This document shows positions 12,516 to 55,146 of a stretch of 64,000 nucleotides of DNA, piece by piece. A program made the position numbers and the translations under genes. Location: the NCBI RefSeq assembly GCF_004010195.1, contig NC_057754.1, positions 3,037,649 to 3,101,648 of the forward strand, given 5' to 3'. Each line of letters opens with the position of its first letter. Positions within the stretch are counted from its first letter, which is position 1. This stretch comes from Chiloscyllium plagiosum. Taxonomy: Eukaryota. The notes under the pieces were generated by a model. That model did not search any database and was not told where the DNA came from. It saw only the letters and a list, made by a program, of their open reading frames with translations.

Positions 12516-12634
12516 TCTAAATACAATCAAAATTCTCCCGCTCCCCGCTAGCAGCAGAGACCGGCCACCTATCCCTGTCTTCCCCACCCTCTGACTTTCA
12601 GCACAGCGACGCGGGAAAGGACTGGGAGACTCAC

Positions 12635-16109: not shown

Positions 16110-16224
16110 CGCTTTTCGCCAGATCGCCTGTGTCTTTTTCAGACTGCTGGGGGCTGTTGACAGCGATCTTCAGGGTAATCCCTCGTGATTTCAAACCCGC
16201 CAGCTGCTTAAAGACCTGCTCACC
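16110..16224 (-). CDS. PLD3-like exon
   Basis: cgcag|GEQVFKQLAGLKSRGITLKIAVNSPQQSEKDTGDLAKSG|gtgagt; 115 nt, phase 0 to 1. Confidence 0.93.
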
Positions 16225-16297
16225 CTGCGCACAAACCACATCGCTAAAATTAGGGCGTGAGGCAACTCCACAGAATATCCCGTCACCGAGTCACCAC

Positions 16298-16832
16298 TTA
16301 GAGTCATAGAGATGTACAGCACGGAAACAGATCCTTCGGCCCAACCCGTCCATGCCGACCAGATCTCCCAACCCAATCCAGTCCCACCTGCCAGCACCCG
16401 GCCCATATCCCTCCAAACCCTTCCTATTCATATACCCATCCAAATGCCCCTTAAATGTTTCAATTGTACCAGCCTCCACCACTTCCTCTAGCAGCTCATT
16501 CCATACACGCACCACCCTCTGTGTGAAAAAGTTGCCTCTTGGATCTCTTTTATATCTTTCCCTTCTCACCCAAAACCTATGCCCCTCTAGTTCTGTACTC
16601 CCAGGGAAAAGACTTTGTCTATTTATCCTATCCATGCCCCTCATGATTTTGTAAACCTCTATAATGTCACCCCTCAGCCTCCGACGCTCCAGGGAAAACA
16701 GCCCCAGCCTGTTCAGCCTCTCCCTGTAGCTCAAACCCTCCAACCCTGGCAACATCCTTGTAAATCTTTTCTGAACCCTTTCAAGTTTCACAACATCTTT
16801 CAGATAGGAAGGAGACCAGAATTGCACACCAT
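16298..16832 (-). mobile_element. Young 5'-truncated CR1/HER1 LINE
   Basis: Open VQFWSP..KLERVQKRFTRMLPGLEGLSYRERL..NFFTQRVVRVWNEL and CTCTATGACTCTA tail. Confidence 0.95.
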
Positions 16833-17924
16833 AGCCTCTAATTGACACGGGGGGAGTCCTTGACCCCAGGAAGGCCCCCACTGGGCCAGCTCTCAGAGTG
16901 AACAGAACCTCTGACACTCCCCTGTTAATTTTCCTTTGGCCAGCTGGCTCAGAGTCAGCCCCCTGAACGGAGGAGATTCTAAATCTCCACTCAGGGTTAT
17001 TTCTTCTCTCTCTCTCTCTCTCTCTCTCTCCACCCCCACCCTACCGCCTAACATCGGTAGTGCTTATTCAGTCCCCAGCGCCCATGTCGCGCGTGTGTGT
17101 AGGTGTCGGACACAGTGAAGAATAACAAATACAGAAATTTTTATCCCTATTCCACCGCCAGGAAGAAAGGAAACACCCCAGTGGCCAGTGACAAGCAGTG
17201 CCCTTCTCGGAGGGCAATGCTGTGTGATCAAACAGTGAAGGGGAGGGCAGGGATTGCCTCAAAATAGAGTCGGAGGGGGAAATAAAACCCTCCACACCCT
17301 GCGGTGCCCACCTCTCCCTGAAAACCTCGAGGGTGCTGGTAGACACCGCGTGCTCCTTCTCTGGGGACACCTCTTCACCTGTTTATATCTGTCATCCCTG
17401 GTTGTACCAGGTTAACCTGATGAAGGGCTTTTGCCCGAAACGTCGATTTTCCTGCTCCTCGGATGCTGCCTGACCTGCTGTGCTTTTCCAGCACCACTCT
17501 AATCTAGACTCTGGTTTCCAGCATCTGCAGCCCTCACTTTTGCCAAGGTTAACAACCCCAAACAGGGAGCTCGCCTTCTATAAGGTTCACCTGGCTGACC
17601 TCATTATACAGCTTTAAACTAATCGAAGGAAGCCCAGTGTCTCTCAGAGAGCAAGTACAACTGGTTGGAAAATCTCATCCGTTTGGAAACGTTTGCCTGA
17701 AGGGAAGGCCAACACTTATTGCCCATCCCTAATTGTCCGAGGGACTAACTAGGGCCATTACAGAGGGCAGTTAGGAGACAAACCACATTGCTGTGGTTGT
17801 GGAGTCACATGCAGGCCAGACAGGGCCCAGATTTCGTTCCCAAAACCGGACGCTTTTCCCTGGCAGGTTTTAGCGATTGAAATTTTGATTAGTGATGGAG
17901 AAAGCATTACAGGAAGTGCAGGCT

Positions 17925-18974
17925 TGAAAGTGGAGTGACGGGTAGGCAGGATAGTGAAGAAGGCGTTTGGTATGGCTTGCCTTTATTGGTCAGTGCACTG
18001 ACTATGGGAGTTGGGAGGTCTGTACAGGACATTGGTCAGGCCACTTTTGGAATACTGCATTCAATTCCCTGCCACAAGCAGGAGGTTGTGAAACGTGAAA
18101 GGGTTGAGAAAAGATTTACAAGAATGTTGCCAGGGTTGGAGGGTTTGAGCTACAGGGAGAGGCTGACTACACCAGCACCGCTTTCCCTGGAGCGTTGGAG
18201 GCTGAGGGGTGACCTTATAGAGACTTATAAAATCATCAAACGCATGGATAGGCTAAATAGTCAAAGTCTTTTCCTCGGGGTAGGGGAGTTCAGCACTAGA
18301 GGGCTGAGGTTTAAGGTGAGAGGGAAAAGGTTTAAAAGGGATCAGAGGGGCTACTTTTTTCACACAGAGGGTGGTGTGTGTATGGAATGAGCTGCCAGGA
18401 GAAGTGGTGGAGGCTGGTACAATGACAACATTTAAAAGGCACCTGGATGGGTATGTGAATAGAATAGCCTTTAGTGTGAATGGTAGGGAATTAGAGTTTG
18501 CGATTTTTGTAAAGATTTGTAGCTCAGGGCTGAGGTTCAGGTTGTAAGTTTGCTCACTGAGCTGGAAGACTGGCTCTCAGACGTTTCGTCACCATGCTGG
18601 GTAACATCATCAGTGAGCCTCTGATGAAGCGCTGGTGTTGTGTCTCGCTTTCTATTGGTGTGTCTAGGTCTAAACAAAAAGACAGAACGCGCCCAGAGAC
18701 TCTAGCCACATTACCACACATTAAAGGCATCTCGGAGATGGCAACCAGACTACTCCAGCCCCTTGGCATCGTGGTAGCCCATAAACCTACCAACACACTG
18801 AAAGAGCTCTTGATGAACCTAAAGGACCCTGTACCAACAACCAGCAGAATTAATGTCATTTACAAAATACCCTGCAAGGCCTGCGACAAAATACATCAGA
18901 CAGACGAGCAGGAAACTAGCTACCAGGATACATGAGCACCAACTGGCCACCAAAGGACACGACCAACTATCACT

Positions 18975-19005
<31 letters not shown>

Positions 19006-19412
19006 GATGAGGGGTACCAGTCCGACTGGGATAATACATCCATCCTAGACAATGCACGGGAATCCTTACAGGCCTGGCACTCAAACCGAAACTCCATCAA
19101 CAAACACATCGATTTGAACCCCATTTACCAAACTCTCAGAAACACAACCTGAAGTGATAACACCCACCACATCACGAGACACATCAATAGAAAGCGAGAC
19201 ACAACACCAGCGCTTCATCAGAGGCTCACTGATGATGTTACCCAGCATGGTGACGAAACGTCCGAGAACAAGTCTTCCAGCTCACCGAGCAAACTCACAG
19301 CCCGGATTTGGAGGGATATGGGCCAAATGCTGGCAGATTAATTTGGGATATCTGGTCGGCACGGACAAGGTGGGTTGAAGGGTCCGTTTGCGTGCTGTAC
19401 ATCTCTGTGACT
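17925..19412 (+). mobile_element. CR1/HER1 3' fragment interrupted by a Penelope element
   Basis: CR1 ORF to ~18460; tail resumes at ~19304 (GGATTTGGAGGGATATGGG). Confidence 0.9.
18500..19303 (+). mobile_element. Penelope-like element: GIY-YIG endonuclease remnant between inverted terminal repeats
   Basis: TLPHIKGISE..LLQPLGI..HKPTNTL..NVIYKIPCKAC..QTSRKLATRIHEH..SINKHIDL; ~18545-18660 is the reverse complement of ~19180-19295. Confidence 0.92.
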
Positions 19413-19466
19413 CCAGGACTCTTACGTGTGTATAAGCCAGGCAAGGATTGAGAAAGCACTGTTCAC

Positions 19467-19650
19467 CTGAGAGGCTGAAGGATCCCCTTGGCTCAGGTCA
19501 CCGCCCCGCAATGTGAAGTAAAAGGCTGCGATTTCCACAGTGTGGTTGGCCTGATCGAGGAGATCCATCCAGCCGTTGTAGATGGAGACATGGTGAGGGG
19601 CACCTTTGGAGAACGAAAGTCCGATCGGAATACTCTCCACCAGAGTCAAC
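19467..19650 (-). CDS. PLD3-like exon (start of the catalytic domain)
   Basis: tttgcag|(x)LTLVESIPIGLSF...WMDLLDQANHTVEIAAFYFTLRG...SASQ|gtgaac; 184 nt, phase 2 to 0. Confidence 0.95.
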
Positions 19651-21399
19651 CTGCAAACCAAACAATACTCACACGGATCTCTCCCGGGATTTAAATGTCC
19701 CAGAAGCAGCCAGGGTGCCTCCGTGCCGATCTCCCGTTCCCTGGACATCTCCGCTACTGCCTCATGTGCCAACTCACTTGCTGTGCTCGCTTACCCTCAC
19801 TGGTGGCCAGTCAATTCTTACTCTGTAACCTCCTCCCTGCACCTACTCCTACACCCCCTCCCTGTCTCTGTCACCCCCTCCAGCCCCTACACCCCTCCCT
19901 ATCTCTGTCACCCNNNNNNNNNNNNNNNNNNNNNNNNNNNNNNNNNNNNNNNNNNNNNNNNNNNNNNNNNNNNNNNNNNNNNNNNNNNNNNNNNNNNNNN
20001 NNNNNNNNNNNNNNNNNNNNNNNNNNNNNNNNNNNNNNNNNNNNNNNNNNNNNNNNNNNNNNNNNNNNNNNNNNNNNNNNNNNNNNNNNNNNNNNNNNNN
20101 NNNNNNNNNNNNNNNNNNNNNNNNNNNNNNNNNNNNNNNNNNNNNNNNNNNNNNNNNNNNNNNNNNNNNNNNNNNNNNNNNNNNNNNNNNNNNNNNNNNN
20201 NNNNNNNNNNNNNNNNNNNNNNNNNNNNNNNNNNNNNNNNNNNNNNNNNNNNNNNNNNNNNNNNNNNNNNNNNNNNNNNNNNNNNNNNNNNNNNNNNNNN
20301 NNNNNNNNNNNNNNNNNNNNNNNNNNNNNNNNNNNNNNNNNNNNNNNNNNNNNNNNNNNNNNNNNNNNNNNNNNNNNNNNNNNNNNNNNNNNNNNNNNNN
20401 NNNNNNNNNNNNNNNNNNNNNNNNNNNNNNNNNNNNNNNNNNNNNNNNNNNNNNNNNNNNNNNNNNNNNNNNNNNNNNNNNNNNNNNNNNNNNNNNNNNN
20501 NNNNNNNNNNNNNNNNNNNNNNNNNNNNNNNNNNNNNNNNNNNNNNNNNNNNNNNNNNNNNNNNNNNNNNNNNNNNNNNNNNNNNNNNNNNNNNNNNNNN
20601 NNNNNNNNNNNNNNNNNNNNNNNNNNNNNNNNNNNNNNNNNNNNNNNNNNNNNNNNNNNNNNNNNNNNNNNNNNNNNNNNNNNNNNNNNNNNNNNNNNNN
20701 NNNNNNNNNNNNNNNNNNNNNNGGAGGAGGGTGAGAGGGGGGGGGGGGGGGGGGGGGGGGAGAGGGAGGGGGAGAGAGAGAGAGATATAGAGAGGGAGGG
20801 GGAGAGAGGGAGATGGGGGTGGAAGAGATGGAGAGACAGGGAGGGAGAGAGACGGAGAGAGACAGAGAGAGAGAGAGAGACGGGGGTGGGGGAACAAAAC
20901 AGGCAATCACCAAGAGTGGCAAGCATTGAGAGCACCTTCCTATTGCTGAAGCCACCCACGGTCGAATAGCTAGCCCAGACTCACAAGGTTGGCTCCATGG
21001 GCAGAATGTGACAGATCTGCTCAAATCACCACCCCGTACGCCGTCACAGGTCAGAGGGCATTTCCACCATGTGAGGCATCACAGTACATTCCGATGCTAT
21101 GCCCCCTCCCTGCAATGCACAAGTGTGAATGTGCGGGGGTGGGGGGGGGGGTTAGGGGGAATGACCAGGCTGGACAGGGCTTAGACAGAAAAGGACCTGA
21201 TTCCAATCCCTGTGTCCTGAACGTATCCACCTCCCCACCACCCCCCACCAACCACCCACCCCACCCCCGGCGACCATTGCTCATTCCCCATACCCTCCGA
21301 CCTCGCATCCAAGGACAGCAGAGGCCATTTGAAAATGAGGGGTGTGTGTGACGAGAAAGTCCCTCATCACTCATGTCTCATCATTACCATCACCTCCAT

Positions 21400-21800
21400 A
21401 CCGTGCTGACCCTGTCCTGGGGAGTGTTTGATGGGGGGACAGTGTAGAGGGAGCTTTACTCTGTATCTAACCCCGTGCTGTCCCTGTCCTGGGAGTGTTT
21501 GATGGGGGACAGTGTAGAGGGAGCTTTACTCTGTATCTAACCCCGTGCTGTCCCTGTCCCTGCAAGTGTTTGATGGGGGACAGGGCAGAGGGAGCTTTAC
21601 CCTGTATCTAACCCCGTGCTGTCCCTGTCCTGGGAGTGTTTGATGGGGGACAGTGTAGAGGGAGCTTTACCCTGTATCTTACCCCGTGCTGTCCCCTGTC
21701 CTGGGAGTGTTTGATGGGGGACAGTGTAGAGGGAGCTTTACTCTGTATCTAACCCCGTGCTGTCCCTGTCCCTGCAAGTGTTTGATGGGGGACAGGGCAG
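21400..21800. repeat. ~70-bp shark satellite (CCCTGTCCTGGGAGTGTTTGATGGGGGACAGTGTAGAGGGAGCTTTACTCTGTATCTAACCCCGTGCTGT)
   Basis: ~5.5 tandem copies; another array at 32036-32625. Confidence 0.95.
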
Positions 21801-23390
21801 ATGGGGTTAGGAAGAGGGTGAAGGGCTGGAGGAGGTGTATGGGGTTAGGAAGAGGGTGAAGGGCTGGAGGAGGTGTATGGGGTTAGGAAGAGGGTGAAGG
21901 GCTGGAGGAGGTGTATGGGGTTAGGAAGAGGGTGAAGGGCTGGAGGAGGTGTATGGGGTTAGGAAGAGGGTGAAGGGCTGGAGGAGGTGTATGGGGTTAG
22001 GAAGAGGGTGAAGGGCTGGAGGAGGTGTATGGGGTTAGGAAGAGGGTGAAGGGCTGGAGGAGGTGTATGGGGTTAGGAAGAGGGTGAAGGGCTGGAGGAG
22101 GTGTATGGGGTTAGGAAGAGGGTGAAGGGCTGGAGGAGGTGTATGGGGTTAGGAAGAGGGTGAAGGGCTGGAGGAGGTGTATGGGGTTAGGAAGAGGGTG
22201 AAGGGCTGGAGGAGGTGTATGGGGTTAGGAAGAGGGTGAAGGGCTGGAGGAGGTGTATGGGGTTAGGAAGAGGGTGAAGGGCTGGAGGAGGTGTATGGGG
22301 TTAGGAAGAGGGTGAAGGGCTGGAGGAGGTGTATGGGGTTAGGAAGAGGGTGAAGGGCTGGAGGAGGTGTATGGGGTTAGGAAGAGGGTGAAGGGCTGGA
22401 GGAGGTGTATGGGGTTAGGAAGAGGGTGAAGGGCTGGAGGAGGTGTATGGGGTTAGGAAGAGGGTGAAGGGCTGGAGGAGGTGTATGGGGTTAGGAAGAG
22501 GGTGAAGGGCTGGAGGAGGTGTATGGGGTTAGGAAGAGGGTGAAGGGCTGGAGGAGGTGTATGGGGTTAGGAAGAGGGTGAAGGGCTGGAGGAGGTGTAT
22601 GGGGTTAGGAAGAGGGTGAAGGGCTGGAGGAGGTGTATGGGGTTAGGAAGAGGGTGAAGGGCTGGAGGAGGTGTATGGGGTTAGGAAGAGGGTGAAGGGC
22701 TGGAGGAGGTGTATGGGGTTAGGAAGAGGGTGAAGGGCTGGAGGAGGTGTATGGGGTTAGGAAGAGGGTGAAGGGCTGGAGGAGGTGTATGGGGTTAGGA
22801 AGAGGGTGAAGGGCTGGAGGAGGTGTATGGGGTTAGGAAGAGGGTGAAGGGCTGGAGGAGGTGTATGGGGTTAGGAAGAGGGTGAAGGGCTGGAGGAGGT
22901 GTATGGGGTTAGGAAGAGGGTGAAGGGCTGGAGGAGGTGTATGGGGTTAGGAAGAGGGTGAAGGGCTGGAGGAGGTGTATGGGGTTAGGAAGAGGGTGAA
23001 GGGCTGGAGGAGGTGTATGGGGTTAGGAAGAGGGTGAAGGGCTGGAGGAGGTGTATGGGGTTAGGAAGAGGGTGAAGGGCTGGAGGAGGTGTATGGGGTT
23101 AGGAAGAGGGTGAAGGGCTGGAGGAGGTGTATGGGGTTAGGAAGAGGGTGAAGGGCTGGAGGAGGTGTATGGGGTTAGGAAGAGGGTGAAGGGCTGGAGG
23201 AGGTGTATGGGGTTAGGAAGAGGGTGAAGGGCTGGAGGAGGTGTATGGGGTTAGGAAGAGGGTGAAGGGCTGGAGGAGGTGTATGGGGTTAGGAAGAGGG
23301 TGAAGGGCTGGAGGAGGTGTATGGGGTTAGGGAGAGGGTGTAGGGGCTGGAGGAGGTGTATGGGGTTAGGAGGAGGGTGTAGGGGCTGGA
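21801..23390. repeat. 38-bp G-rich minisatellite (ATGGGGTTAGGAAGAGGGTGAAGGGCTGGAGGAGGTGT), ~41 copies
   Basis: Essentially identical tandem copies, degenerate only at the right end. Confidence 0.97.
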
Positions 23391-23570
23391 AGTGGTGACA
23401 GAGATAGGGAGGGATTTCAAAACAAGCAGCCGGACCCTTGTCAAATTGAAATATTTTCCTAACAGCAATCTCTGTGGGATTCCTCAGATCGCAGGTCTTC
23501 TCACATTCACCAACCATCTCCTGCAGTGACCAGCAGCTGACCTTCAAGCCCAGACCATTGTAATACTGAC

Positions 23571-23798
23571 CTTGACCACAGGAGGGACCATGATGCTCCT
23601 GGGGGTCTCCTGGTGCTCAGTTCCATCCTCCTCTTCCTCCTTCTGTTCTTCCTCCCCTTCCTCCTTCTTCATCCTCCTTTGCTTCAAATCTAAGTCTGCC
23701 TTCACCTTCTGCAGAACAACCTGAAGTGGTTTCAAATTAACCTGATGGAACATGACCCACTCTGAAATTAGGCGCTGGCGCAGTGCTTTCACCGTGCG
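23571..23798 (-). CDS. Candidate N-terminal exon of the PLD3-like gene (charged, E/K-rich)
   Basis: Pyrimidine tract + cacag|RTVKALRQRLISEW...KKEEGEEEQKEEEED...PPVVK|gtcagt; 228 nt, open, phase 0 to 0. Confidence 0.6.
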
Positions 23799-24169
23799 CT
23801 GTGATATCACACAAGAGAGAGATACAGGAGAGGGTAGACATGTCTAACTGGTTCCTCAATGCCCTGTCCATTCTGGGACAGAAAGGACACCCTACCTCCA
23901 AAACGAAGCACTTTGTAAAACATACTTTTTGTGTGTACAACTCCCATACACAGCAATGTGAGCATGATCCAGATCATTTGATTTTGGTGTTGTTGGTTGA
24001 GGGATAAATATTTGCCCCCAGGACTCCAGAGAGAACACCCTCTCGCTCATTTACCAATAGTAGCCACTCGATTCTCTTACACACATAATCAGACCCACAG
24101 TCATCTATACGTACAACCTTGACCCTTCGAGAGGGCAGGGGTAGCTCAGCAATTAATGTCTCATCTGAA

Positions 24170-25550
24170 AGATAACACACCCGACAGCATGGCACTCCCT
24201 CAGTACTGACCCCCCCGACAGTGCGGCGCTCCCTCAGTACTGACCCCCCGACAGTGCGGCGCTCCCTCAGTACTGACCCCCCCGACAGCATGGCGCTCCC
24301 TCAGTACTGGCCCCCCAACAGCATGGCGCTCCCTCAGTACTGACCCCCCNNNNNNNNNNNNNNNNNNNNNNNNNNNNNNNNNNNNNNNNNNNNNNNNNNN
24401 NNNNNNNNNNNNNNNNNNNNNNNNNNNNNNNNNNNNNNNNNNNNNNNNNNNNNNNNNNNNNNNNNNNNNNNNNNNNNNNNNNNNNNNNNNNNNNNNNNNN
24501 NNNNNNNNNNNNNNNNNNNNNNNNNNNNNNNNNNNNNNNNNNNNNNNNNNNNNNNNNNNNNNNNNNNNNNNNNNNNNNNNNNNNNNNNNNNNNNNNNNNN
24601 NNNNNNNNNNNNNNNNNNNNNNNNNNNNNNNNNNNNNNNNNNNNNNNNNNNNNNNNNNNNNNNNNNNNNNNNNNNNNNNNNNNNNNNNNNNNNNNNNNNN
24701 NNNNNNNNNNNNNNNNNNNNNNNNNNNNNNNNNNNNNNNNNNNNNNNNNNNNNNNNNNNNNNNNNNNNNNNNNNNNNNNNNNNNNNNNNNNNNNNNNNNN
24801 NNNNNNNNNNNNNNNNNNNNNNNNNNNNNNNNNNNNNNNNNNNNNNNNNNNNNNNNNNNNNNNNNNNNNNNNNNNNNNNNNNNNNNNNNNNNNNNNNNNN
24901 NNNNNNNNNNNNNNNNNNNNNNNNNNNNNNNNNNNNNNNNNNNNNNNNNNNNNNNNNNNNNNNNNNNNNNNNNNNNNNNNNNNNNNNNNNNNNNNNNNNN
25001 NNNNNNNNNNNNNNNNNNNNNNNNNNNNNNNNNNNNNNNNNNNNNNNNNNNNNNNNNNNNNNNNNNNNNNNNNNNNNNNNNNNNNNNNNNNNTGCAGTGC
25101 TCTCAGAGTACAGAGCCTCAGACAGTGCGGCATTCCCTCTGGACTGAACGTCTGACAGCATGGTGCTCCCTCAGTACTGACCCTCCGACAGCATGGTGCT
25201 CCCTCAGCACTGACCCTCCGTCAGTGCCCACTCCCTCAGCACTGACCCTCCCACAGTGCCCACTCCCTCCGTACTGACCCTCCGACAGCACAGTGCTGCC
25301 TCAGCCTTGACCCTCCGACAGTGTAGCACTCCCTCAGCATTGACCTTCCCACAGTGCGGCACTCCATCAACACTGGCCCTCTGACAGCGCGGCACGCCCT
25401 CAGCCTTGACCCTCCAAAAGCACAGCGCTCCCTCAGCACTGACCCTCCCACTGTGCCTGCTCCCTCAGCACTGACCCTTCGACAGTGCCCACTCCCTCAG
25501 CACTGACCCTCCGACAGTGCCCACTCCCTCAGCACTGACCCTCCGGCTGC
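24170..25550 (-). repeat. 33-bp minisatellite apparently derived from a DeuSINE internal segment, spanning an N gap (24350-25092)
   Basis: Reverse complement of GTCAGTGCTGAGGGAGCGCCGCACTGTCGGAGG; followed by SINE-like TCTTTCAGATGAGACATTAA. Confidence 0.85.
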
Positions 25551-28138
25551 ATTGAACTCTTCCCACTCTGGCACTGGGAGTATGAGCAAAAGTGTCGAGA
25601 GTGAATACTCGATTCCCTTTTCGTGAGAAAAACCATGACTAACAGCTGGGAATGAGGTGGCTGGCCCATTGGCTCGGACAGAGAGAGATAAAAACAGAGT
25701 CGCAGAGTGAGGCGCTGGAAAAGCACAGCAGGTCAGGCAGCATCCGAGGAGCAGGAGAGTCAACATTTCAGGAATGGCTTATTCTGCTCCTGGGATGCTG
25801 CCTGACCTGCTGTGCTTTTCCAGCAACACACTCTTCAAATCTGATCTCCAGTGCTCACTTTCTCCCAGAAATAAAGACAGACAGAGACTGAGAGAGAGAG
25901 ACTGACAAAGAGACCGAGAGAGACAGAGTGAAAAAGATACAGAGAGAAAGAGAGAGAAGGGGTTAGATGGCAGAGCTGTTGGGTAAGAATAGCAGAGACT
26001 CTTCTCGTGAAAGGATAACACCTCCACACACCAGGAGAGGGCACTATCTGCACATACCACAGACTGTGTCTGAGTTGCTTCCCTCCATAGGAACAGTAAC
26101 AGTAACAATACTGAGGTACAGTATCAGAACCAAAACTCTCTACCTGCGATACAAAGTACCTGCAGTGACTCACAGCGATACACCAAAGTGGAACACAACT
26201 AGGGGAGGTTGTAGAACGAGATCGGGTGTGAGGAAGGAAGGAGATGTGAAGTACAGCCAACAACAATGTGCATTCCTGTAGCGCCTTTACGTGACATACC
26301 ATCCTCCTGGCAGTATAACCCAACAGGTTTTGACCCTGAGCCACATTATTAGGGGCAGACTCGTCCAAAGAATTTGCTTTAATGAGGGTCTTGGAGGAGC
26401 GAAAGGGAGAGAGAGAGAGAGAGACAGCAAGGTTTAGGGAAGGGAAATCCAGAGCTTAAGAGTCCCAGGAAGCTGAAGGAATGGTCACTAATGCTGAATG
26501 ATGGGAATTGGGGGATGCTCAAGGGGCCCGGAATCGGAGCACAGATGTAGGGCTGGAGGGGGTGACAGAGATAGGGAGGGGGTGTAGGGCTGGAAGCGTG
26601 ATAGAGATAGGGAGGGGGTGTAGGGGGTTACAGAGATAGGGAAGGGGGTGTAGGAGCCAGAGGAGGTTACAGGGATAGGGAGGGGTGCAGGGGATGGGAG
26701 AGATTACAGAGGTAGGGGAGGGGACTTGGGGCTGGAGGAAATGACTGAGCTAGGGAGGGGATCTTGGGGGCGTCTGAGTTGTATGTCCCGTTATAACACA
26801 CCAACTGCAGCGCAATACATCAGGCAGACAGCTCCCCTCTCCAACCTGCCCAAAAGCTTTATCCGAATCCTCTACCCCAACCTTTAAAAGCTTGTGGTCC
26901 CACTGTCCCTCTGGCTGGAGACTGAGATACCATCTGGATGACAGGACCTGTTAACAGCTCCCTCTCTATGTAAAAACAATGCAAGTGCATTTGCATAGCA
27001 CCTATCACAACCTCAGGATGTCTCAATGCCTGTTCACAGCCAAATGTCAGCACTGTCAGCAATGCAGGAAATGCACTGGCCATGCACAGCAGGATCCCAC
27101 ATACAGCGACTAACCAGCAAATCATCTGCCTTTGGGAAGTTAGTCGGAAGTAAAGAGGTTTCGTAATTTATTTACAAAACTGAAAACCCCTGGGGGAGGT
27201 GCTGGAGGTCAGAAAAAACGAAACAGGCTGGAAACACTCTGAGGGACAGGGAGTGGGGGGGACACTGAAACAGTTAGCGATCCATTCCTAGGACCCTTCA
27301 CCAGAACTGGGAAGGAGAGTGAGATGTGAATGGGGGTGTTAGTGCCAAGCAGAACGAGATGACAAAGGGATGGAAGACATGTGTAGAGGAGGTGTGAACG
27401 GTAGCAGAAGGCAGAGGGATGATGGTCATCTCACTGGACTAGTGGTGGGGGGGGTCATTTGATTATAAGACCAAAAGACATAGGAGTGGAAGTAAGGCTA
27501 TTCGGCCCATCGGGTCCACTCCACCATGGCTGGTGGCCATTTCAATGCCACTTACCCACACACTCCCCATATCCCTTAATTGCTTGCACGATTAAGAATT
27601 TATCAATCCCTGCCTTGAAGACACGTAACGTCCCAGTCTCCACTGCGCTCCATGACAATGAATTCCACAGGCCCACCACTCTCTAGCTGAAGGAATGTCT
27701 CCTCATTTCCGTTTTAAATTGACCCCCTCCAATTCCAAGGCTGTGCCCACGGGTCCCAGTCTCCCCGCCTGACGGAAACACATTCCCAGCATCCACTCTT
27801 TCTAAGCCATGCATTATTTTGTAAGTTTCTATTAGATCTCTCCTCAATGTTCTAAACTCTCATGAATGCCATCCCAGGATCTTCAGCCGTTCATCATATG
27901 TTAGGCCTAGCCTTGGTGAGACTTAAATCCCACCCCTAAAACAGGGTGGGGTGAGGCTGGGGAGAGAACAATGGGTGAATGGGGGAGGGGGTGGAGGTGA
28001 TCCGAGGAGCAGGAAAATCAAAAAGCCCTCTTGCTGATTTCTCAATCCCCTGCTGAATTCCCTGTGTCCTTTTCTCAGTCCAACCCATCAATTTGATTGA
28101 AATACCTGATGTTAACATTGCCCCCCCCCCATACTCAC

Positions 28139-28297
28139 CGGCTCAGCCTCCTCCTCCTCTATCCTTGCTGTCGCACTGCTCCTCAGGGTTCTGGAGCTCC
28201 CACGGATAGGATTCCTGGGCGTCAGGACCAGCATTTCGCTGGACCGGGAATCTGCTTGCTCCTGGCTCTCGGTTTCCGTCTCTCCCTCTTCTTGAAC
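28139..28297 (-). CDS. Candidate N-terminal exon of the PLD3-like gene
   Basis: gagcag|VQEEGETETESQEQADSRSSEMLVLTPRNPIRGSSRTLRSSATARIEEEEAEP|gtgagt; 159 nt, phase 0 to 0. Confidence 0.55.
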
Positions 28298-28392
28298 CTG
28301 CTCCCAGGACAGGAAACACAGCACATCGCTGACTCCGTGGTAAAACGATTCCCCAGCTCCAGGCTTCCCAGTGCAACCTCCTCCCAGAATGT

Positions 28393-29370
28393 AGGCACAG
28401 CAGAGTGGCTTTAGTGGTTAGCACTTCTGCCTCACAGCTCCAGGCACCTGGGTTCGATTCCACCCTCGGGTGACTGCACAGGGTTTGTACATCCCCCCCG
28501 CCCCCCCAACCATGTCGGCGTGGATTTCCTCCAGGTGCGCTGGTTTCCTCCCACAGTCCAAAAATGTGTAGGTTAGGGTGGATTGGCCATGGGAAATTGT
28601 CCCATAGCGCCCAGGGATATGCAGGTTAGGGTGGATTGGCCATGCTAAATTGTCCCATAGTGCCCAGGGATGTGCAGGTTAGGGTGGGTTGGCCGCGCTA
28701 AATTGTCCCATAGTGCCCAGGGATGTGCAGGTTAGGGTGGATTGGCCATGCTAAATTGCCCCATAGTGCCCAGGGATGNNNNNNNNNNNNNNNNNNNNNN
28801 NNNNNNNNNNNNNNNNNNNNNNNNNNNNNNNNNNNNNNNNNNNNNNNNNNNNNNNNNNNNNNNNNNNNNNNNNNNNNNNNNNNNNNNNNNNNNNNNNNNN
28901 NNNNNNNNNNNNNNNNNNNNNNNNNNNNNNNNNNNNNNNNNNNNNNNNNNNNNNNNNNNNNNNNNNNNNNNNNNNNNNNNNNNNNNNNNNNNNNNNNNNN
29001 NNNNNNNNNNNNNNNNNNNNNNNNNNNNNNNNNNNNNNNNNNNNNNNNNNNNNNNNNNNNNNNNNNNNNNNNNNNNNNNNNNNNNNNNNTGGCCATGCTA
29101 ACTTGTCCCATAGTGCCCAGCGATGTGTAGGTTAGGGTGGATTGGCCACGCTAAATTGTCCCATAGCGCCCAGGGATTTGCAGGTTAGGGTGGATTGGCC
29201 ATGCTAAATTGTCCCATAGTGCCCAGGGATGTGCAGGTTAGGGTGGATTGGCCATGGGAAATTGTCCCATAGTGTCCAGGGATGTGTAGGTTAGAGTGGA
29301 TTAGCCATGGGAAATGTAAGGTTTTGGGGAAAGATTGGGGTGCTCCTCAGAGGGTCAGTGTAGACTTTTA
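28393..29370 (+). mobile_element. HE1 SINE with large 53-bp tandem expansion across an N gap
   Basis: Head at ~28393; units on both sides of gap 28779-29089. Confidence 0.88.
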
Positions 29371-30875
29371 GATTAGATTAGATTACAGTGTGGAAACAGG
29401 CCCTTCGGCCCAACAAGTCCACACCGACCCGCCGAAGCGTAACCCACCCATACCCCTACATTTACCCCTTACCTAACACTACGGGCAATTTAGCATGGCC
29501 AAGACTTGGTGTCTCCTTTCTGCACAGAATCCCCCACACTCTGGGAAGATGCCATTTCAGCCCATCGTGTCCCGGACTAGCTCTCTCTAACCACCCCTTA
29601 AATATCCAAATAATCATGCAATGCTCAGCTGAACCTGCCCCCCCACCACCACCACCACCACATTTCCAGGCGATACCTTTCAGACTGTAACCTCTCCCTG
29701 GGTGGGGGAGAAAAATAAAATTGCTTCCCACAGCGTCTTTGTTTCGTTTCCAACACAATTTAAAACGTGTGATCTCTGAATTCTGAATGCTTTCCCGCAT
29801 CTTTGCCCAGGCCCCTCACTTCATCCCGCAGACCCGGTAATGTCTGCTGACAATTTCAGGGCTGCTTTTCGAGTTGTTCCTTTGCAATTGAGAATGGGGG
29901 CAATTAATTTTCCACTCACGTCTCTCTGGGGGGGGGGGGGGTTGGTTTCTTTCTTTGGCGCCAAAAGTGATCAGAAACTGAAACAGTGAAAGAAATTGCT
30001 GCGTCCACTTCCGGGAATGCTTTGTGGAGAAATAAGTTTTGAAAAATGCAACATTTCGTTTAATCTTAATGCGGTGCACATGAAGGGATGGAGGTGAATC
30101 CCCAACTCTCTCCGTCCCTGTCACGTTTGAATATAAGTGCTTTAGGGGGAACTTGTCAGCTTTGGAAATTGATACAGTTAAAAATGTTGCAATAAGGCGT
30201 TGATATCGACAAAATAAAACACAGGAATGCACATTTAACTTCTGTTACCATCCTAGGGTCAGCACACACACACACAGACATCATAGTCGAAGGTCCTAGA
30301 CAAGGGGATGCCAATTACATTAAGTTTCACTGGCTAATTTCACGAATGCTGGAGATTTCAGGGAGGACCACAAATTTGGTCACGGTTTTTAAAGCGTGCA
30401 GTCGAATCGGTCCCCAGTAGTTTTACAAAATGGTATCACTTTACGTCTCTCTCTCTCTCTCTCGAAGATGCACAAACCTGCCCTTTCAGTCGCTTCGACT
30501 TCCTCCGTTGCACCTCGACCCTCCTTGGCATTGCAAAGCGAGACGAAATCTTTGCCCCCACTCCCCACTGAAACAAAACTTTGTTTTAAAAGACTTCTTC
30601 AAAGTCACTGCTGGCCACTTGCTTTGTTGGGGTTTTTGTTGTTGTTGTTGTTTGCAGTGACGTTTTTAGGAAACGGGCGATAACCACCTTCTGGCCAGCA
30701 AAGCAACAGCCAGCTCCCACAACAGAGACTTTCAAATTTAAACCGGTTTGTCAGTTAGAGCGGGGATTTTTTTTTAAAAAAAATATATCTTTCCTGTTCC
30801 GTCCCTCAGGCAGCAATAAGGCTGCCCTCCAGTGGTCCCACAGCCAACTTTCATGTCACTGAAGTTGTCTCTCAC

Positions 30876-41063: not shown

Positions 41064-41392
41064 AGTCCTCCCAGCCTCCAGGTGGCGACAGTAGGACGGT
41101 GGAGCGTCTGGGAAGAAATGAGAGTGCATGTGAAGTAGTCCTCCCAGCCTCCAGGTGGCGACAAGTAGGACGGTGGAGCTTCTGAGAAGAAATGAGAGTG
41201 CATGTGAAGTAGTCCTCCCAGCCTCCAGGTGGCGACAGTAGGACGGTGGAGCTTCTGGGAAGAAATGAGAGTGCATGTGAAGTAGTCCTCCCAGCCTCCA
41301 GGTGGCGCGGTGGTGGGGGGGGAGCTCAGTGCAACTCTGGGAATAAAGGAAGTTGCATGCGAGAGAGTCCTCCCAGCCTCCAGGTGGCAATA
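41064..41392 (+). repeat. 73-bp tandem repeat, 5 units, each with a CTCF-like motif GCCTCCAGGTGGC(G/A)
   Basis: Motif starts at 41074, 41147, 41221, 41294 and 41376. Confidence 0.85.
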
Positions 41393-41399
41393 GGGGGAA

Positions 41400-42060
41400 C
41401 TTGTTTGTTCAGGCGTCAAACGTCCTTGGCGTTGCCATGGCAAAAGCGGCGCGAATCTCGCGAGACAGGGTGGCATTTCCGGTCCGGCCGCGGGGGGAAG
41501 AGAGCGTGGTCTGCGCCTGCGCATCGGCTCGTGGTGGGGGTGTGCGGGTGAACGGAACCAAAGGCGACGCTGCGTTTAGAAGGTTTTTTTTTCTCTGGAG
41601 AAGAAGGGGCGCCTCTTCGGGCTGTACTGAGTGAGACCGTGTGGGGCGGAGAGAAGGAGAAGCGGGTCCGGGACCTCGGGTGAACTGGGCCTTTCGCCGC
41701 CCGCCTCTTTTCGGTTTTTTTTTGTGTGTGTGTGTCACCCCGGCAGCGGTTCGCGGGGAACAGCCAATGGCAGGGCAGCCGGAGCATTGAGTGACGGCCG
41801 GTCTGACCAATCGGCAGTAGGATCACCGCCATGTGTGACAGTTAGATCAGCCAATCAACAGCCGGGTGCAGGTTGAGTGACGGCACATCCAGCCAATCGG
41901 AGGCTGTCGCGGACTGAGTGACGGTCGGATTGGCCAATCTACAGCGGGGCTGGGTCTGTGTGGCCGCCTGCCCCTCAAGGGGACGGTGATCATTGGCAGG
42001 TTGGCTATGAGTCTCCAGCCAATCAGCGAATTGAGTGAGTGGGTCTTTCTTAATTGTTTT
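41400..42060. promoter_or_regulatory. CpG-island promoter, probably shared by the divergent PLD3-like (-) and ZBTB3 (+) genes
   Basis: CpG-dense; RFX X-box GTTGCCATGGCAA 41431, E2F GGCGCGAA 41448, TCTCGCGAGA 41456, ETS ATTTCCGG 41475, NRF1 TGCGCCTGCGCA 41512, ~7 CCAAT/ATTGG boxes 41760-42025. Confidence 0.85.
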
Positions 42061-42079
42061 CGAGCCTCCAATAGAGAGA

Positions 42080-42870
42080 GGGGTAACTAACTGGCCAATC
42101 AGGCTCTCTCAGGGGGTAACTAACTGGCCAATCAGGCTCTCTCAGGGGGTAACTAACTGGCCAATCAGGCTCTCTCAGGGGGTAACTAACTGGCCAATCA
42201 GGCTCTCTCAGGGGTAACTAACTGGCCAATCAGGCTCTCTCAGGGGGTAACTAACTGGCCAATCAGGCTCTCTCGGGGGTAACTAACTGGCCAATCAGGC
42301 TCTCTCGGGGGTAACTAACTGGCCAATCAGCCTCTCTCTCAGGGTAACTAACTGGCCAATCAGGCTCTCTCGGGGGTAACTAACTGGCCAATCAGGCTCT
42401 CTCAGGGGTAACTAACTGGCCAATCAGGCTCTCTCAGGGGGTAACTAACTGGCCAATCAGGCTCTCTCAGGTGTAACTAACTGGCCAATCAGCCTCTCTC
42501 TCAGGGTAACTAACTGGCCAATCAGGCTCTCTCTCGGGGTAACTAACTGGCCAATCAGGCTCTCTCGGGGGTAACTAACTGGCCAATCAGCCTCTCTCAG
42601 GGGGTAACTAACTGGCCGATCAGCCCCTCTCAGGGGGTAACTAACTGGCCGATCAGCCCCTCTCAGGGGGCTACTGACTGACCAATCACTTCTTCCCAGG
42701 AGGTAAGGAGCTAGCCAATCCATTCCTCCGGGGGGAGGGTAGCTAACTGGCCAATCAACCCCTCTCATGGGGGAACTAACTGACTAATCACTTCTTCCTA
42801 GGGGGATAATTAACTGGCCAATCAGTTCCTCTCAAAGGATAACTAAGTAATTGGCCAATCAGTTCATTCA
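42080..42870 (+). repeat. 32-33-bp tandem array GGGGGTAACTAACTGGCCAATCAGGCTCTCTCA, ~24 units
   Basis: ~16 near-perfect units followed by progressively degenerate ones. Confidence 0.95.
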
Positions 42871-42871
42871 G

Positions 42872-43075
42872 AGCTGAAAAATGTGTTGCTGGAAAAGCGC
42901 AGTAGGTCAGGCAGCATCCAAGGAGCAGGGGAATCGACGTTTCGGGCATAAGCCCTTCTTCAGGAATCTGCCCGAAACATTGATTCTCCTGCTCCTTGGA
43001 CGCTGCCTGACCTGCGCTTTTCCACCAACACATTTTTCAGCTCTGATCTCCAGCATCTGCAGTCCTCACTTTCTC
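42872..43075. mobile_element. Palindromic Penelope-derived short element with 17-bp TSD
   Basis: TSD CCAATCAGTTCATTCAG at 42855-42871 and 43076-43092; two inverted arms. Confidence 0.88.
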
Positions 43076-46000
43076 CCAATCAGTTCATTCAGTCAATAGG
43101 TAAAAGCTGGCCAATCAGCTCCTCTGAGCTAGCCTCCTCTCTGGGGAAGTGAGCCCCACAGAGATAGCAACCTCTGAGTCAGAAAGTTCCTCCCATGTCT
43201 TAAATGTGGGAGATCTTTTATTTAAACTGAGCCCTGTAGTTAGTGTCTCTGGCAGAACGGGATACATCATCTCAGCATCCACCTTGTCTAATTTCCTCAG
43301 GATCCTTTACGTCTTAATAGGATCAACTAATGGATCATGACCACATCTTTGGGTACCAGTTGAGGAAACCTCTTCTGATTGAGAAGAGGCAGTCCCAAAC
43401 TGAAGTGGTCCGGTCTCAAATGAGTTAAACAAAGTGAGAGACCATGGGAGCTAAACTCTGATGAAACACAAAATCAAATCTGGAATCTTTGACTCGGTCG
43501 GTAAAGGCATCAGGTTAAAAAGCATAAACACTGGTTGGTTCCCCAGCTAGCTCCTGTACCTTTGGAAGGATTTCAGGGCCTTGCAGAGGGTGAGGAGGAG
43601 TTTTACTGGAACTGGACCAGGGATGAGGGACTTTGATTCATACGGGAGACTGGAGATACTGGGATCATTCCCCACAGAGCAGAAAAGGTTTGGGGGAGAT
43701 TGAATTGAGGTGTTCAAAATCAGGAAGGTGTTTTGGTTGAGTGAATGAGGGAGAAACGGACACAGACTGAAGAGACTAGAGAAAATAACTCAAGGAGAAG
43801 ATGAGAATAATCTATTGTCACATATATCCAGGGAGATATGATAAAAAGTATTCTTTCACCGCAATCTGGCGCTGTTTTGAAGTAATAAAAGAATAAAAAG
43901 AAAGTAGAGTTCATCTTCATCTACTGGTGTCCCAAACACAGCTTCAGGACTTCTGCATAGTCCTGCTCCAGTCCTACCACATCCAGGAGTCCCCGCTTTA
44001 GGCACCAACTCTACCGAATGTATCCAGGCTCCAGGCCTACTGCAGCCAAGAGACCCTGCTTCTCCATCGCCATAGCCAATGCCCCATTACCATTCCAGGA
44101 GTTCACACATCAGGCTGATGAGCCAGGAGTCACTACTGACACTGCTCCAGCCAACCCGACTCCTGTGAAACAACCTTGAAGAAGAGGGTTGTTGTGATCT
44201 GGAACGGGTGCCGGGAGCAGATTCAACAGGGACTTTCGAAAGGGGAAGTCAGACAAATACATGAAAAAGACAGATCTATCAGGACTATGGGGCTGAGTGG
44301 GTTTAATTGGACAGATCTGTCAAAGAGCTAAAGGGCTCTTTTCTAACCTATATTTATTGTCTCTGGGGTGTAGTGTTCAGCCATCAATGTCAGACAGTCA
44401 TGATAAAAGCAATTGGGAATCCGGGAGAAACCTCACCCAGACAATGGAGGAGTTGAGGCAAATTGAACTGACATATTTAAGGAGGAAGCTGTATAAACAA
44501 CATGAGACTGGAGGAATAGGTTAGGATGATGGGGGGGGGGGGATGGTGATTCTGGAGTTGAAGAGGGCTGGGAGGAGGCTGTTGTTTAGCAGGAATACCA
44601 GCATGGAAGATGGGTTTGGAAAGGATTAAATTCCAAGAATGAGTTGCACAGATTGAGCTTATGTTTTCTTGAGCGTAGAAGATTTAGGAGGCCATACAGT
44701 AACACAGCATGGAAACAGACCCTTCAGCCCAACTCGTCCATGCTGACCAGTTCTCCTAAACCGAATTAGTCCCATTTGCCTACGTTTGGCCCCTTATCCC
44801 TCTAAACCTTTCCTATTCATGCAGCTGTCCAAATGTCTTTTAAATGTAGTACCCAGATCTTATCACTTCTTTCTTCAATTGGGTCAAGCTACTTGAGGAT
44901 TTTAAGATGATTAAAGCATTCAATGAGGTTGATAGAAATTATTTCCGAAGGTGGAGAAGAGCCATCAAATTCAGACAAACATATGAACGAGGACAAGTCA
45001 TCAGTTTAGCCCCTCGAGCACGTTCATAATTCAATAAGATCACAGCTGACCTGATTGTAACCTCAAATCTACATTAACCCCTGACCCTGATAACCTTTCA
45101 ACCCAATGCTGATTAAGATCTAATTGCATAGCTGTTGAAATTGTTCAAGGACTCTGCTTCCGCCACCTACTCTGAAATCCAAAGGTGTGCAGGTTAGGTG
45201 GATTGGCCATGGGAAATGCAAGGTTACAGGGACAGGTTGGGGGGTGGGGGGTTGGTGGGATGCTCTTTGGAGGGTCAATGTGGACTCGAGGGCCGAATGG
45301 CCTGCTCCCGCACTGTAGGGGTGATTCTATGATATTCAGGAATTGACTGCCAAAGAATCTCAATCCTCTGAGAGAAAAGAATTTTGCCCCTCCTCTCTTT
45401 TAAATGTATGACTGCTGATTTTTAAAATAATAACCCTCCGTTCTACATTCTCCCATGAGAGGAAACATCCCCTCCACCTCCATCCTGTCAAAACACCTCA
45501 GGCTCTTACATGTTTCAATCAATTTGCCTCTTACTCTTCTCAACTTCAATAGATATGAGCCTAACCTGTTCAACCTTGTCTTATAAAAAAAGAACCTGCC
45601 TATTCCCAGTATTAATTGAGTAAATGTCTGAAATGCCTCCAATACATTGTCATCCATCATTAAATAAGGAGACCAGTATTGTACACGGTATCCCAGGTGT
45701 GGTCTCTCCAATGCTCTGTACAGCTGAACAAAACCCCTCTATTTTTGTCACAATAAATGATAATGTTTTATTAGCTTTCTGAATTACTTGCTATCCCTGG
45801 ATACTTCTAAGATTCATGCACTGGACACCCAGATCCCTCTGCATCTCAAAGCATCCATCTTTGTTTCTTCAACAAATTTAGTATCAATACCTTAGGTCTC
45901 TTCATCAAAGTCATTATGTGGGTTCTAAATAGTTGAAGTCCCAATGATGACTCCTGCAGCACACAATTTGCTTCATCTTGCCGATCTGAAAAAAACCCAG

Positions 46001-53260: not shown

Positions 53261-53571
53261 TTCTCTGAGGAACATCCAAAGACGGTGAAAGTTATCCGAT
53301 AAATATGGAAGCTGCTTGCGTATTGGGGTTGAGGTTGAGGCTGTGGAGCAGGCCATTCAGCCCATCGAGCCCCTTGCTGTGTTTGTGGTAGACCAGTTGC
53401 CCGTCCAGTGTCACTCAATGATCCTTCTCCACTCTCTCTCTTTTCTCTTCCAGGATGAGCGAGGCCTGGGGATTCCTGTGAGTCTGACACCATCCCTGAT
53501 TCTCCCCCACCCCCCACCCCCCCCCACTCCCGACACACGGTTCACACCTCCTCTTCTCCCCCCCCCCCCCG

Positions 53572-55146
53572 ATGGAGTTCCCTGACCATGGTCGTTTGCT
53601 GCTGCAGAGCCTGCGGGACCAGAGACACCAGGGCTTCCTGTGTGACTGCACGGTGCTGGTGGGGGCGGTGCAGTTCCAGGCCCACCGGGCCGTGCTCGCC
53701 TCCTTCAGCACCTACTTCCACATGTTCTACAAGGAGGAGGCGGTAGGCCGCAGGGACGTAGTGGGCCTGGACGACGAGATAGTGACGGCGCCGGCCTTCT
53801 CCCTGCTGCTGGAGTTCATGTACGAGGGCCGGCTCCGCTTCAGCGGTGCGCCCACCGAGGATGTGCTGGCTGCGGCCAGCTTCCTGCACATGAACGACAT
53901 CGTCAAGGTGTGCAAGGGCCGGCTGAAGGCCCGGGCCCTGGCGGAGGCTGACAGCACCCGCAAGGAGGATGAGGCCCAGCAGCAACCGGGAGCAGGGGGA
54001 GGGCTCGGCCTATCCGCCTCCTACCGGGGGGTCGTGCCTCCCCCACCCGTCCCTCCCCTGCAGCCCCCACCGCCCTCTCGGAGACAGCCCCCGGCGCCAG
54101 CGGAGCTGCCCTACGCCTCGGGGGGCGAGGAGGACAGGGCCGGAGCCTCCCTCCTGCTGCTGCAGCCCCCCGAGGCACCGGCCCCCGGTCGCTGGCCCCC
54201 CGAGCCGGCCGACACCACCACCAGCAGCCAGGCCAGCATGGAGACCGAGGCCTACCCCAGCAGGCCGGCCGGCAACGTCCTGGCCAGCCCTTCCTCCTCC
54301 ACGGCGGAGGCCCCCTGCCCTCGCTGGGCCGGGCTGTCGGGCAGCAGGAGGAGGCCCCACCAGGAGGAGGAGGAGGAGGGTGGGGAGGAGGAGGCAGGGG
54401 ACGGGGACACTGAGGACGACGGCGATCTGATCACGGTCAAGGTGGAGGACGACCTGTTCTCCGAGGAGGAGGCCGGAGAGGAACCGCCTGAGGGCGATGC
54501 TCCCGAGGAGGTGGAGGCCGCTGCTGCCTCCTGCTGCCCGCAGCTCGATGACCTCTTCCAGCAGCCACCGGCGGAGTTAGCCCAGGCCCAGACCCCGGCC
54601 TTGGCCTGTGGAGGGGGAGGGGGCCACATCGTCATCTCGGACGAGGATGAGATGCCGTCGGAGGATGACGCGTTCCCGGCTCCTGGCCTCTACCACCACC
54701 GGGGTCTCCCACCCCCCGCCCCACAGGCCTCTCCGGGAGACTTGGGCTCCCCTGCCGCCTTGGGCCTTTCGGCCAAGCTCTACTTCCAGGACCTGCCGCC
54801 AGGGCCAGGGCCAGGGCCTGGGCCGGGCCCAGCCGGCTCAGAGGATGAGCTGCCGACCTGCGGGGCCTGCGGCAAGACTTTCTCCTGTGCCTACAGCCTG
54901 AAGCGGCACGCCCTGGTGCACACCCGCGAGAGGCCCCATAGCTGCCGCTTCTGTCTCCGTCGCTACTCACAGTCCGGGGACCTGTACCGCCACATGCGCA
55001 AGTACCACAACGCCCACGTCTCGTCGTCATCCCCTGGACCAGGCCCCGGACCAGGCCCTGGTCCCGGACCCAGCCCCGGCCGACAGGACTCCTCCAACGG
55101 TGGCTGGAAGTGGATGGACAAGCCTCCTTCAGAACAGTGGAAATGA
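53572..55146 (+). CDS. ZBTB3: Zinc finger and BTB domain-containing protein 3 (524 aa, BTB plus two C2H2 fingers), single coding exon; acceptor at 53453
   Basis: [43 protein letters not shown]; fingers [50 protein letters not shown]; two fingers and the [12 protein letters not shown] pattern fit ZBTB3 rather than four-finger ZBTB18/42. Confidence 0.93.

What the first reader, a model, noticed from the sequence alone, without database searches (positions are those of the whole stretch)
42080..42870. ~24-unit array of composite MYB + CCAAT (NF-Y) sites at 32-33-bp pitch abutting the CpG island
Seen: each intact unit has TAACTG (MYB YAACKG) overlapping TGGCCAATCAG (a near-optimal NF-Y box), all in one orientation and about three helical turns apart. 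CCAAT persists in several degenerate units whose spacers have diverged (~42682, 42715, 42751, 42818, 42855), and the array continues a run of CCAAT boxes inside the island. Known: tandem CCAAT boxes ~32-33 bp apart are the functional geometry in cyclin B-type cell-cycle promoters, usually with 2-3 boxes. Inference: a minisatellite built from phased TF sites could act as a copy-number-tunable promoter/enhancer or a nucleosome-exclusion track for ZBTB3/PLD, possibly in proliferating or germ cells.
Basis: partly seen in the sequence, partly recalled or inferred. Interest (0 to 1): 0.75.

Follow-up and report, generated by a model that had tools for sequence, protein, structure and literature searches.

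The report
Intronic NF-Y-box minisatellite in bamboo shark
A 24-copy, 33-base repeat whose units carry textbook CCAAT boxes sits just inside the first intron of a shark ZBTB3 gene, where it likely binds the factor NF-Y as a promoter-side enhancer, a kind of element already described at the human ABO gene and in ERV-9 repeats.

Summary
The array is real: 24 units at 32-37 bp pitch (42080-42871), 21 with CCAAT, 20 fitting the NF-Y consensus RRCCAATSR against 7 of 128 CCAATs elsewhere in the window. Contigs from 3 of 3 assembled runs splice 42034 to 53454, so the array starts 45 bp inside intron 1 of ZBTB3. It has no canonical CHR and drifts about 39 degrees per unit, so it is not a cyclin-B-type promoter. 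The MYB hexamer is weak (3 of 7 old units, 5% by chance). The array is polar: 18 young units, then degenerate ones, the last split by a 204-bp insertion with a 17-bp target duplication; a 25th unit lies beyond. CCAAT is better kept than other columns in old units (p 0.01-0.05 on the stricter tests, with ascertainment bias). The island holds a separate, stronger feature: four TALE/NF-Y (DECA-11-CCAAT) composites. Best reading: a locus-specific minisatellite amplified from an older intronic NF-Y cluster, like the ABO and LTR12 arrays. Binding, copy-number variation and effect on expression are untested.

The parts
42080..42871 (+). 33-bp minisatellite, 24 units, 21 CCAAT boxes (20 RRCCAATSR), in ZBTB3 intron 1
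42080..42666 (+). young homogeneous part: 18 units, 88-100% identical to the modal unit; the last two carry CCGAT
42667..42871 (+). old degenerate part: 6 units, 61-85% identical to the modal unit, CCAAT kept in 5
42872..43075 (.). 204-bp palindromic fragment of a dispersed repeat inserted in unit 24, between identical 17-bp direct repeats (42855-42871 and 43076-43092) that duplicate one CCAAT
   Evidence: related pieces at about 10 other places of the window; a Penelope-type origin is recalled, not shown
43093..43128 (+). orphan 25th unit beyond the insertion (CCAAT at 43111, 35 bp after the duplicated box)
41301..42080 (.). CpG island (GC 0.60, 57 CpG, o/e 0.86)
41789..41938 (+). four DECA-11bp-CCAAT composites (three GAnnGAC, one GTnnGAC) at 41-44 bp pitch, inside the spliced ZBTB3 leader
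   Evidence: definition
41431..41523 (.). single RFX-, BANP-, ETS- and NRF1-like motifs (labels recalled), each unique in the window
41495..42034 (+). ZBTB3 non-coding exon 1 (5' end not determined); donor GT at 42035
53454..55146 (+). ZBTB3 exon 2 with the coding frame (ATG 53572; BTB and C2H2 fingers)
6306..30531 (-). PLD3-like gene, coding exons; its first non-coding exon was not located

Best explanation
The array is a 33-bp minisatellite that starts 45 bp inside intron 1 of ZBTB3, and it likely grew by slippage or unequal crossover from an older cluster of CCAAT boxes that likely binds NF-Y and would extend the open, NF-Y-rich zone of the neighbouring CpG-island promoter. Shown: position, polarity, consensus boxes, the insertion that dates the 3' end as older, and no second copy in the window. 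Inferred: NF-Y occupancy (consensus fit; a 32-33 bp pitch leaves room for the ~30-bp footprint), selection on the old boxes, and an enhancer-like or island-border role for ZBTB3. The young 18 units are read as run-on amplification whose extra boxes may add little, since the island already holds 5 consensus boxes. MYB is treated as incidental.
For: Splice 42034 to 53454 in contigs of X1, X8 and X10, 3 of 3 assembled runs laid. 20 of 21 boxes fit RRCCAATSR against 7 of 128 elsewhere; the review says this logo points to NF-Y (PMC11802806). Old units: 1 mismatch in 35 CCAAT cells against 61 of 196 other cells (Fisher p 1.4e-4) and 17 of 77 non-slippery cells (p 0.011); counted as distinct derived letters, 2 against 6.4 expected (P 0.048). 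No second copy of the unit in 64 kb. Young-to-old gradient and a 17-bp target duplication. Precedents: ABO 43-bp units and LTR12 41-bp units bind NF-Y.
Against: No binding, chromatin or expression data. Units were cut with CCAAT as anchor and unit 25 was recognised by it, so retention is partly ascertained; units share descent. A CCGAT variant was amplified to two units and one old unit lost its box. CCAAT is typically at -60/-100, not downstream of a donor. 32-33 bp is not among the genome-wide double-CCAAT peaks of 19, 24-28, 35-37 and 43 bp (PMC4889920). The 98-bp and 53-bp arrays of the window also carry CCAAT without an island. The in vivo effect of the ABO array is disputed.
Confidence: 0.5

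Rival explanations
1. Neutral minisatellite: slippage happened to catch one CCAAT box next to a promoter; the array has no selected role, whether or not NF-Y samples it.
For: TRF lists 16 arrays of period 30 or more in 64 kb that I scanned, and 6 besides this one hold some CCAAT. Variation sits in the G and CT runs, as slippage gives. Broken boxes were amplified. The island already has 5 consensus boxes. Retention is borderline once counted as events (P 0.048).
Against: Consensus fit in 20 of 21 boxes, including 5 of 7 old units with diverged spacers; 1 of 35 against 61 of 196 mismatches; position right at the island edge.
Confidence: 0.3
2. One reading: a phased MYB plus NF-Y composite that works as a copy-number-tuned, cell-cycle or germ-cell promoter/enhancer for ZBTB3 or PLD.
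For: TAACTG in 21 of 24 units; ~33 bp is the conserved cyclin B2 spacing; NF-Y leaves the major groove open; CCAAT is enriched in male germ-cell open chromatin.
Against: Intronic position; no TTTGAA/TTCAAA in 41001-43300; MYB kept in 3 of 7 old units, arises in 5.3% of shuffled units and 7 times in the unrelated 98-bp array; 39 degrees of drift per unit; no PLD-side splice seen.
Confidence: 0.07
3. RNA-level element: on the sense pre-mRNA each unit offers ACUAAC (SF1/QKI branch-point-like), a G run and a short pyrimidine-AG, so the array could tune splicing of intron 1.
For: 20 ACTAAY in 0.79 kb against 3 in the next 10.6 kb of the intron; it starts 45 nt after the donor; unspliced contigs enter the array in X1 and X10; SF1 and QKI compete for ACUAA (PMC13004596, abstract start only).
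Against: ACTAAY is kept in 1 of 7 old units against CCAAT in 6 of 7; no joint from the exon 1 donor into unit 1 was listed (contigs drop rare forms); any amplified unit enriches whatever word it holds.
Confidence: 0.07
4. Piece of a dispersed element (LTR U3-type repeat or dispersed satellite) that landed beside the island.
For: LTR12 U3 regions have 5-17 CCAAT-bearing tandem units; other window minisatellites recur at several places.
Against: No second copy of the unit or of the island in the window; 0 exact matches of the 21-base core in viral contigs; no look-alike among earlier windows of the scan. These are weak tests, since the genome was not held.
Confidence: 0.06

Closest known systems
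ABO CBF/NF-Y minisatellite enhancer (human; PMC7187371, passages)
   Same: Gene-linked tandem units with a CCAAT motif near a CpG-island promoter.
   Different: ABO has four 43-bp units 3.7-3.9 kb upstream, with shown NF-Y binding and allele differences, and a disputed in vivo effect. Here 24-25 units of 33 bp lie in intron 1, and nothing is shown functionally.
LTR12/ERV-9 U3 enhancer (PMC11853044, passages)
   Same: Many oriented CCAAT boxes in tandem units; the model for NF-Y-dependent chromatin opening by an array.
   Different: 5-17 units of ~41 nt inside a dispersed LTR family with GATA and MZF1 sites; here no second copy was found in 64 kb.
Cyclin B2 CCAAT/CHR promoter (PMC3287175, passages)
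   Same: ~33-bp distance between neighbouring CCAAT boxes.
   Different: Three boxes plus a CHR in a ~200-bp minimal promoter, conserved in mammals, with B-Myb recruited through the CHR. Here 21 boxes downstream of a splice donor and no canonical CHR.
DECA-CCAAT TALE/NF-Y/Sp2 composite (10.64898/2026.02.16.706105, passages and section 16)
   Same: The island's four composites have the canonical 11-bp gap; the mouse Sp2 promoter has two at 11 bp and one at 10.
   Different: Applies to 41789-41938, not to the 33-bp array, whose units have no DECA word; here the composites lie in a transcribed leader.

Membership tests
Minisatellite | Head-to-tail units of 10-100 bp at one locus | tested here: met
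   tandem joint 'goes back 33' in 3 of 3 assembled runs
Minisatellite (VNTR) | Copy number varies between individuals | not testable with these tools
   Only unit 1 was laid and contigs collapse repeats
NF-Y minisatellite enhancer (ABO type) | Unit carries the extended NF-Y logo RRCCAATSR | tested here: met
   20 of 21 boxes
NF-Y minisatellite enhancer (ABO type) | NF-Y binds the array and it raises transcription | not testable with these tools
   No chromatin or reporter data
Cyclin B-type CCAAT/CHR promoter | Neighbouring CCAAT boxes ~33 bp apart | tested here: met
   20 of 23 intervals are 32-33 bp; reference
Cyclin B-type CCAAT/CHR promoter | Boxes within ~200 bp upstream of the start site | tested here: not met
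   Array lies after the exon 1 donor of ZBTB3; a PLD start site was not located
Cyclin B-type CCAAT/CHR promoter | CHR element beside the boxes | tested here: not met
   No TTTGAA/TTCAAA in 41001-43300; only scattered variant hexamers at 41007, 42795, 43221 (hexamer list recalled)
Cyclin B-type CCAAT/CHR promoter | Boxes and spacing conserved across species | not testable with these tools
   No other shark genome held; organism B differs at only 2 of 541 island letters
LTR12/ERV U3 array | Part of a dispersed LTR family | tested here: inconclusive
   No second copy in 64 kb, 0 in viral contigs; genome not held
DECA-CCAAT composite | GAnnGAC 11 bp before CCAAT in the array units | tested here: not met
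   No hit in 42080-43128
DECA-CCAAT composite | GAnnGAC 11 bp before CCAAT in the island | tested here: met
   3 exact and 1 GTnnGAC, all at 11 bp; at most 1 hit, in 28 of 5000 base shuffles
MYB response element | YAACKG kept better than its surroundings | tested here: inconclusive
   3 of 7 old units intact; 7 mismatches in 42 cells against 61 of 196 for all non-CCAAT columns

The most novel reading that the evidence does not exclude
About 20 NF-Y trimers tile the array end to end (pitch 32-33 bp, footprint ~30 bp, 80-degree bend each), forming a 0.8-kb histone-fold filament of about four units per turn that replaces nucleosomes at the start of intron 1. Its length varies between sharks and sets ZBTB3 output. 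It would be a natural, promoter-born NF-Y array longer than the ABO (4 units) and LTR12 (5-17 units) arrays, and a ready substrate for testing homotypic NF-Y packing.
Probability: 0.12. Interest if true: 0.65.

Novelty: new member of a known kind. Interest (0 to 1): 0.3.

Why it matters
If bound, it is an unusually long natural run of consensus NF-Y sites at about footprint pitch, useful for asking how densely NF-Y packs and whether copy number tunes a gene. It also records a plausible path from a short, older CCAAT cluster to a minisatellite, with an insertion that orders the two ends in time. The concept itself is established (ABO, LTR12), the evidence here is sequence only, and the shark gene has no known phenotype in anything I read, so the value is moderate. 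The four DECA-CCAAT composites in the island are the better-supported regulatory feature of the locus.

Tried and rejected
No whole genome is held, so dispersal was tested only in 64 kb. Earlier findings by sequence and by one word set gave nothing; a looser word set gave unrelated fungal, bacterial and viral notes. Rfam: 0 matches in 40000-45000. Viral contigs: 0 exact matches of the core. Raw single-cell run X21 gave 1 read in about 2% of the run (41615-41666), which says nothing on start sites. A PLD first exon in the island was sought: no minus-side loose end and only two donor-like minus-strand sites, at 40946 and 40884; left open. Descent of the unit from the island boxes was rejected (4-12 of 31 flank identities). 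A link of the 204-bp insertion to the window's GIY-YIG frame (1 of 5 frames hit Pfam) could not be shown. Paper searches without a hit: NF-Y + CCAAT boxes + 33 bp + cyclin B2, VNTR + NF-Y + CCAAT + first intron + copy number, ZBTB3 + pld7; none of the 10 listed papers of 18 mentions Chiloscyllium. The library lacks most subscription papers, so this does not show the locus is unpublished.

Full report
Observation. TRF reports 42080-42846, period 33, 23.3 copies. Cutting by hand gives 24 units to 42871 with the modal unit GGGGTAACTAACTGGCCAATCAGGCTCTCTCAG: 21 CCAAT, 2 CCGAT and 1 CTAAT, all on the + strand. Of 23 intervals, 20 are 32-33 bp. The 21-base core occurs 20 times at up to 3 mismatches, all inside the array, and never in 100 shuffles. 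Twenty of the 21 boxes fit RRCCAATSR, the extended NF-Y logo given in PMC11802806 (introduction read), against 7 of 128 CCAAT pentamers outside 41301-43200. The CpG island is 41301-42080 (o/e 0.86); the array has o/e 0.14.

Genes and position. The window is shark DNA, most likely Chiloscyllium plagiosum: a RefSeq PLD3 model of that species matches the window's last exon at 69 of 69 residues and shares an N-terminus read from the window's intron. A PLD3-like gene runs on the minus strand with coding exons from 30531 to 6306; ZBTB3 has its ATG at 53572 on +. The run search listed 24 runs, 20 holding part of 41380-42870. I laid 4 of them on 41320-42112, which covers the island and unit 1 only. 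In all three assembled runs (X1, X8, X10) the main contig leaves the window at 42035 and continues with 30 letters identical to 53455-53484. This is a GT-AG intron of 11,419 bp, 42035-53453. These runs are not on record as RNA; the spliced joint is what shows RNA origin, and a processed copy is not formally excluded. The array therefore begins 45 bp inside ZBTB3 intron 1, and the island is largely exon 1. The start site is unresolved: X10's contig begins at 41495, those of X1 and X8 run past 41320, and contigs have no strand. The raw run X21 gave 1 read. No minus-side splice towards PLD was seen, although the PLD ATG exon has an acceptor-like site just upstream, so a shared promoter is neither shown nor excluded.

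Independent support for the array. All three assembled runs show a joint that goes back 33 bases; X1 and X10 hold the CCGAT unit and an unspliced branch from exon 1 into unit 1; X1 holds the tail of unit 23. X10 carries a second organism label but differs at only 2 of 541 island letters, so it does not show conservation between distant species. The window has six N gaps, so the unit count may be an assembly estimate.

History. Units 1-18 are 88-100% identical to the modal unit, with differences mostly in the G and CT runs; units 19-24 are 61-85% identical. Unit 24 is split by a 204-bp palindromic piece of a dispersed repeat (42872-43075) flanked by identical 17-bp direct repeats, and a 25th unit follows at 43111. 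Related pieces occur at about 10 other places in the window (21 BLAST rows). The 3' end is thus the older part and the 5' end a later expansion (inference).

Are the motifs selected? In the 7 old units (including the 25th), CCAAT columns have 1 mismatch in 35 cells; all other columns 61 in 196 (p 1.4e-4); the non-slippery columns 17 in 77 (p 0.011). Counted as distinct derived letters over all units, the figures are 2 against 6.4 expected (P 0.048) or 7.7 (P 0.018). This favours retention, but units were cut with CCAAT as anchor and share descent, so the signal is modest. Against it, a CCGAT variant was duplicated. TAACTG is in 21 of 24 units but in 3 of 7 old ones, arises in 5.3% of shuffled units, and occurs 7 times in an unrelated 98-bp array that also holds CCAAT and has no island. 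Of 16 arrays of period 30 or more scanned, 6 besides this one hold some CCAAT, with weaker flanks. NF-Y leaves the major groove open, so MYB co-binding is not excluded sterically; the closest partners I read of sit 10-12 bp away, and TAACTG sits 1 bp away.

Geometry. The mean pitch of 32.6 bp is 3.11 turns, a drift of about 39 degrees per unit. Cyclin B2 does keep ~33 bp between its three boxes, but with a CHR in a ~200-bp promoter, and B-Myb is recruited through the CHR (PMC3287175, passages). No canonical CHR hexamer lies in 41001-43300. Genome-wide, double CCAAT boxes peak at 19, 24-28, 35-37 and 43 bp (PMC4889920, section 14), not 32-33. With a ~30-bp footprint and 80-degree bend, full occupancy would give an open coil of about 4 units per turn in a crude model without local untwisting; this is a prediction only.

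The island run is a different element. Its boxes are 41-44 bp apart, share 4-12 of 31 flank letters with the unit, and four are preceded by G[AT]nnGAC at exactly 11 bp, the DECA-CCAAT composite of TALE/NF-Y/Sp2 (bioRxiv 10.64898/2026.02.16.706105, passages and section 16). Base shuffles of the island gave one such hit in 28 of 5000 and never two. Three other loose hits lie elsewhere in the window, at gaps of 9 and 12. The array units have no DECA word.

Mechanism. Most likely (0.5): an older cluster of several CCAAT boxes just after exon 1 was kept as an NF-Y-bound extension of the island, and one unit then amplified. NF-Y binding, enhancer action and selection are inferred.

Known relatives and novelty. 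Tandem CCAAT units bound by NF-Y are described at ABO (four 43-bp units, in vivo effect disputed; PMC7187371, passages) and in LTR12 U3 (5-17 units of ~41 nt; PMC11853044, passages); a four-box array drives the bidirectional Mrps12/Sars2 promoter (PMC1802594, passages). The shark array has the anatomy of these but is not shown to work as one, and it fails two defining tests for cyclin B-type promoters. Searches found no paper on this locus; no supplements were read. What is unusual is the number of consensus boxes and their near-footprint pitch. Verdict: real, new member of a known kind, function untested; interest 0.3.

Noticed in passing
window 41789-41938: Four DECA-11bp-CCAAT composites at 41-44 bp pitch inside the spliced ZBTB3 leader; 43 bp is a known double-CCAAT class whose partner factor was left open in PMC4889920.
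   Followed up: partly
window 42855-43092: 204-bp palindromic repeat fragment with a perfect 17-bp target duplication, splitting the last array unit.
   Followed up: partly
window 4591-5191: 98-bp tandem array downstream of the PLD3-like stop codon with CCAAT boxes, 7 MYB-type hexamers and a TGACTGACAG word, without a CpG island; no second copy in the window.
   Followed up: partly
window 41064-41398: 73-bp tandem repeat (5 copies, two degenerate) on the other edge of the island, so the island is bracketed by two minisatellites; X1 and X8 contigs reach into it.
   Followed up: no
window 19422-19790 and 19914-25092: The RefSeq C. plagiosum PLD3 model (P0137) starts in intron sequence; the window lacks matches for residues about 126-235 of the relatives, which probably fall in N gaps.
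   Followed up: partly
window 6306-55146: PLD3-like and ZBTB3 hits of five lizards share the same longest-contig length, hinting at old linkage; the name PLD7 for this paralogue is recalled, not tested.
   Followed up: no
window 41495-42034 and 53454-53571: The spliced ZBTB3 leader (at least 658 nt) holds four short upstream frames of 4-10 codons.
   Followed up: no
window 42059 and 42072: One X1 contig (depth 5) differs at both places; the second change removes the weak CCAAT at 42068 just before the array.
   Followed up: no
window 38278-38763 (-): Frame with a GIY-YIG endonuclease match (E 5.6e-05), as in Penelope-type retroelements (family label recalled).
   Followed up: partly
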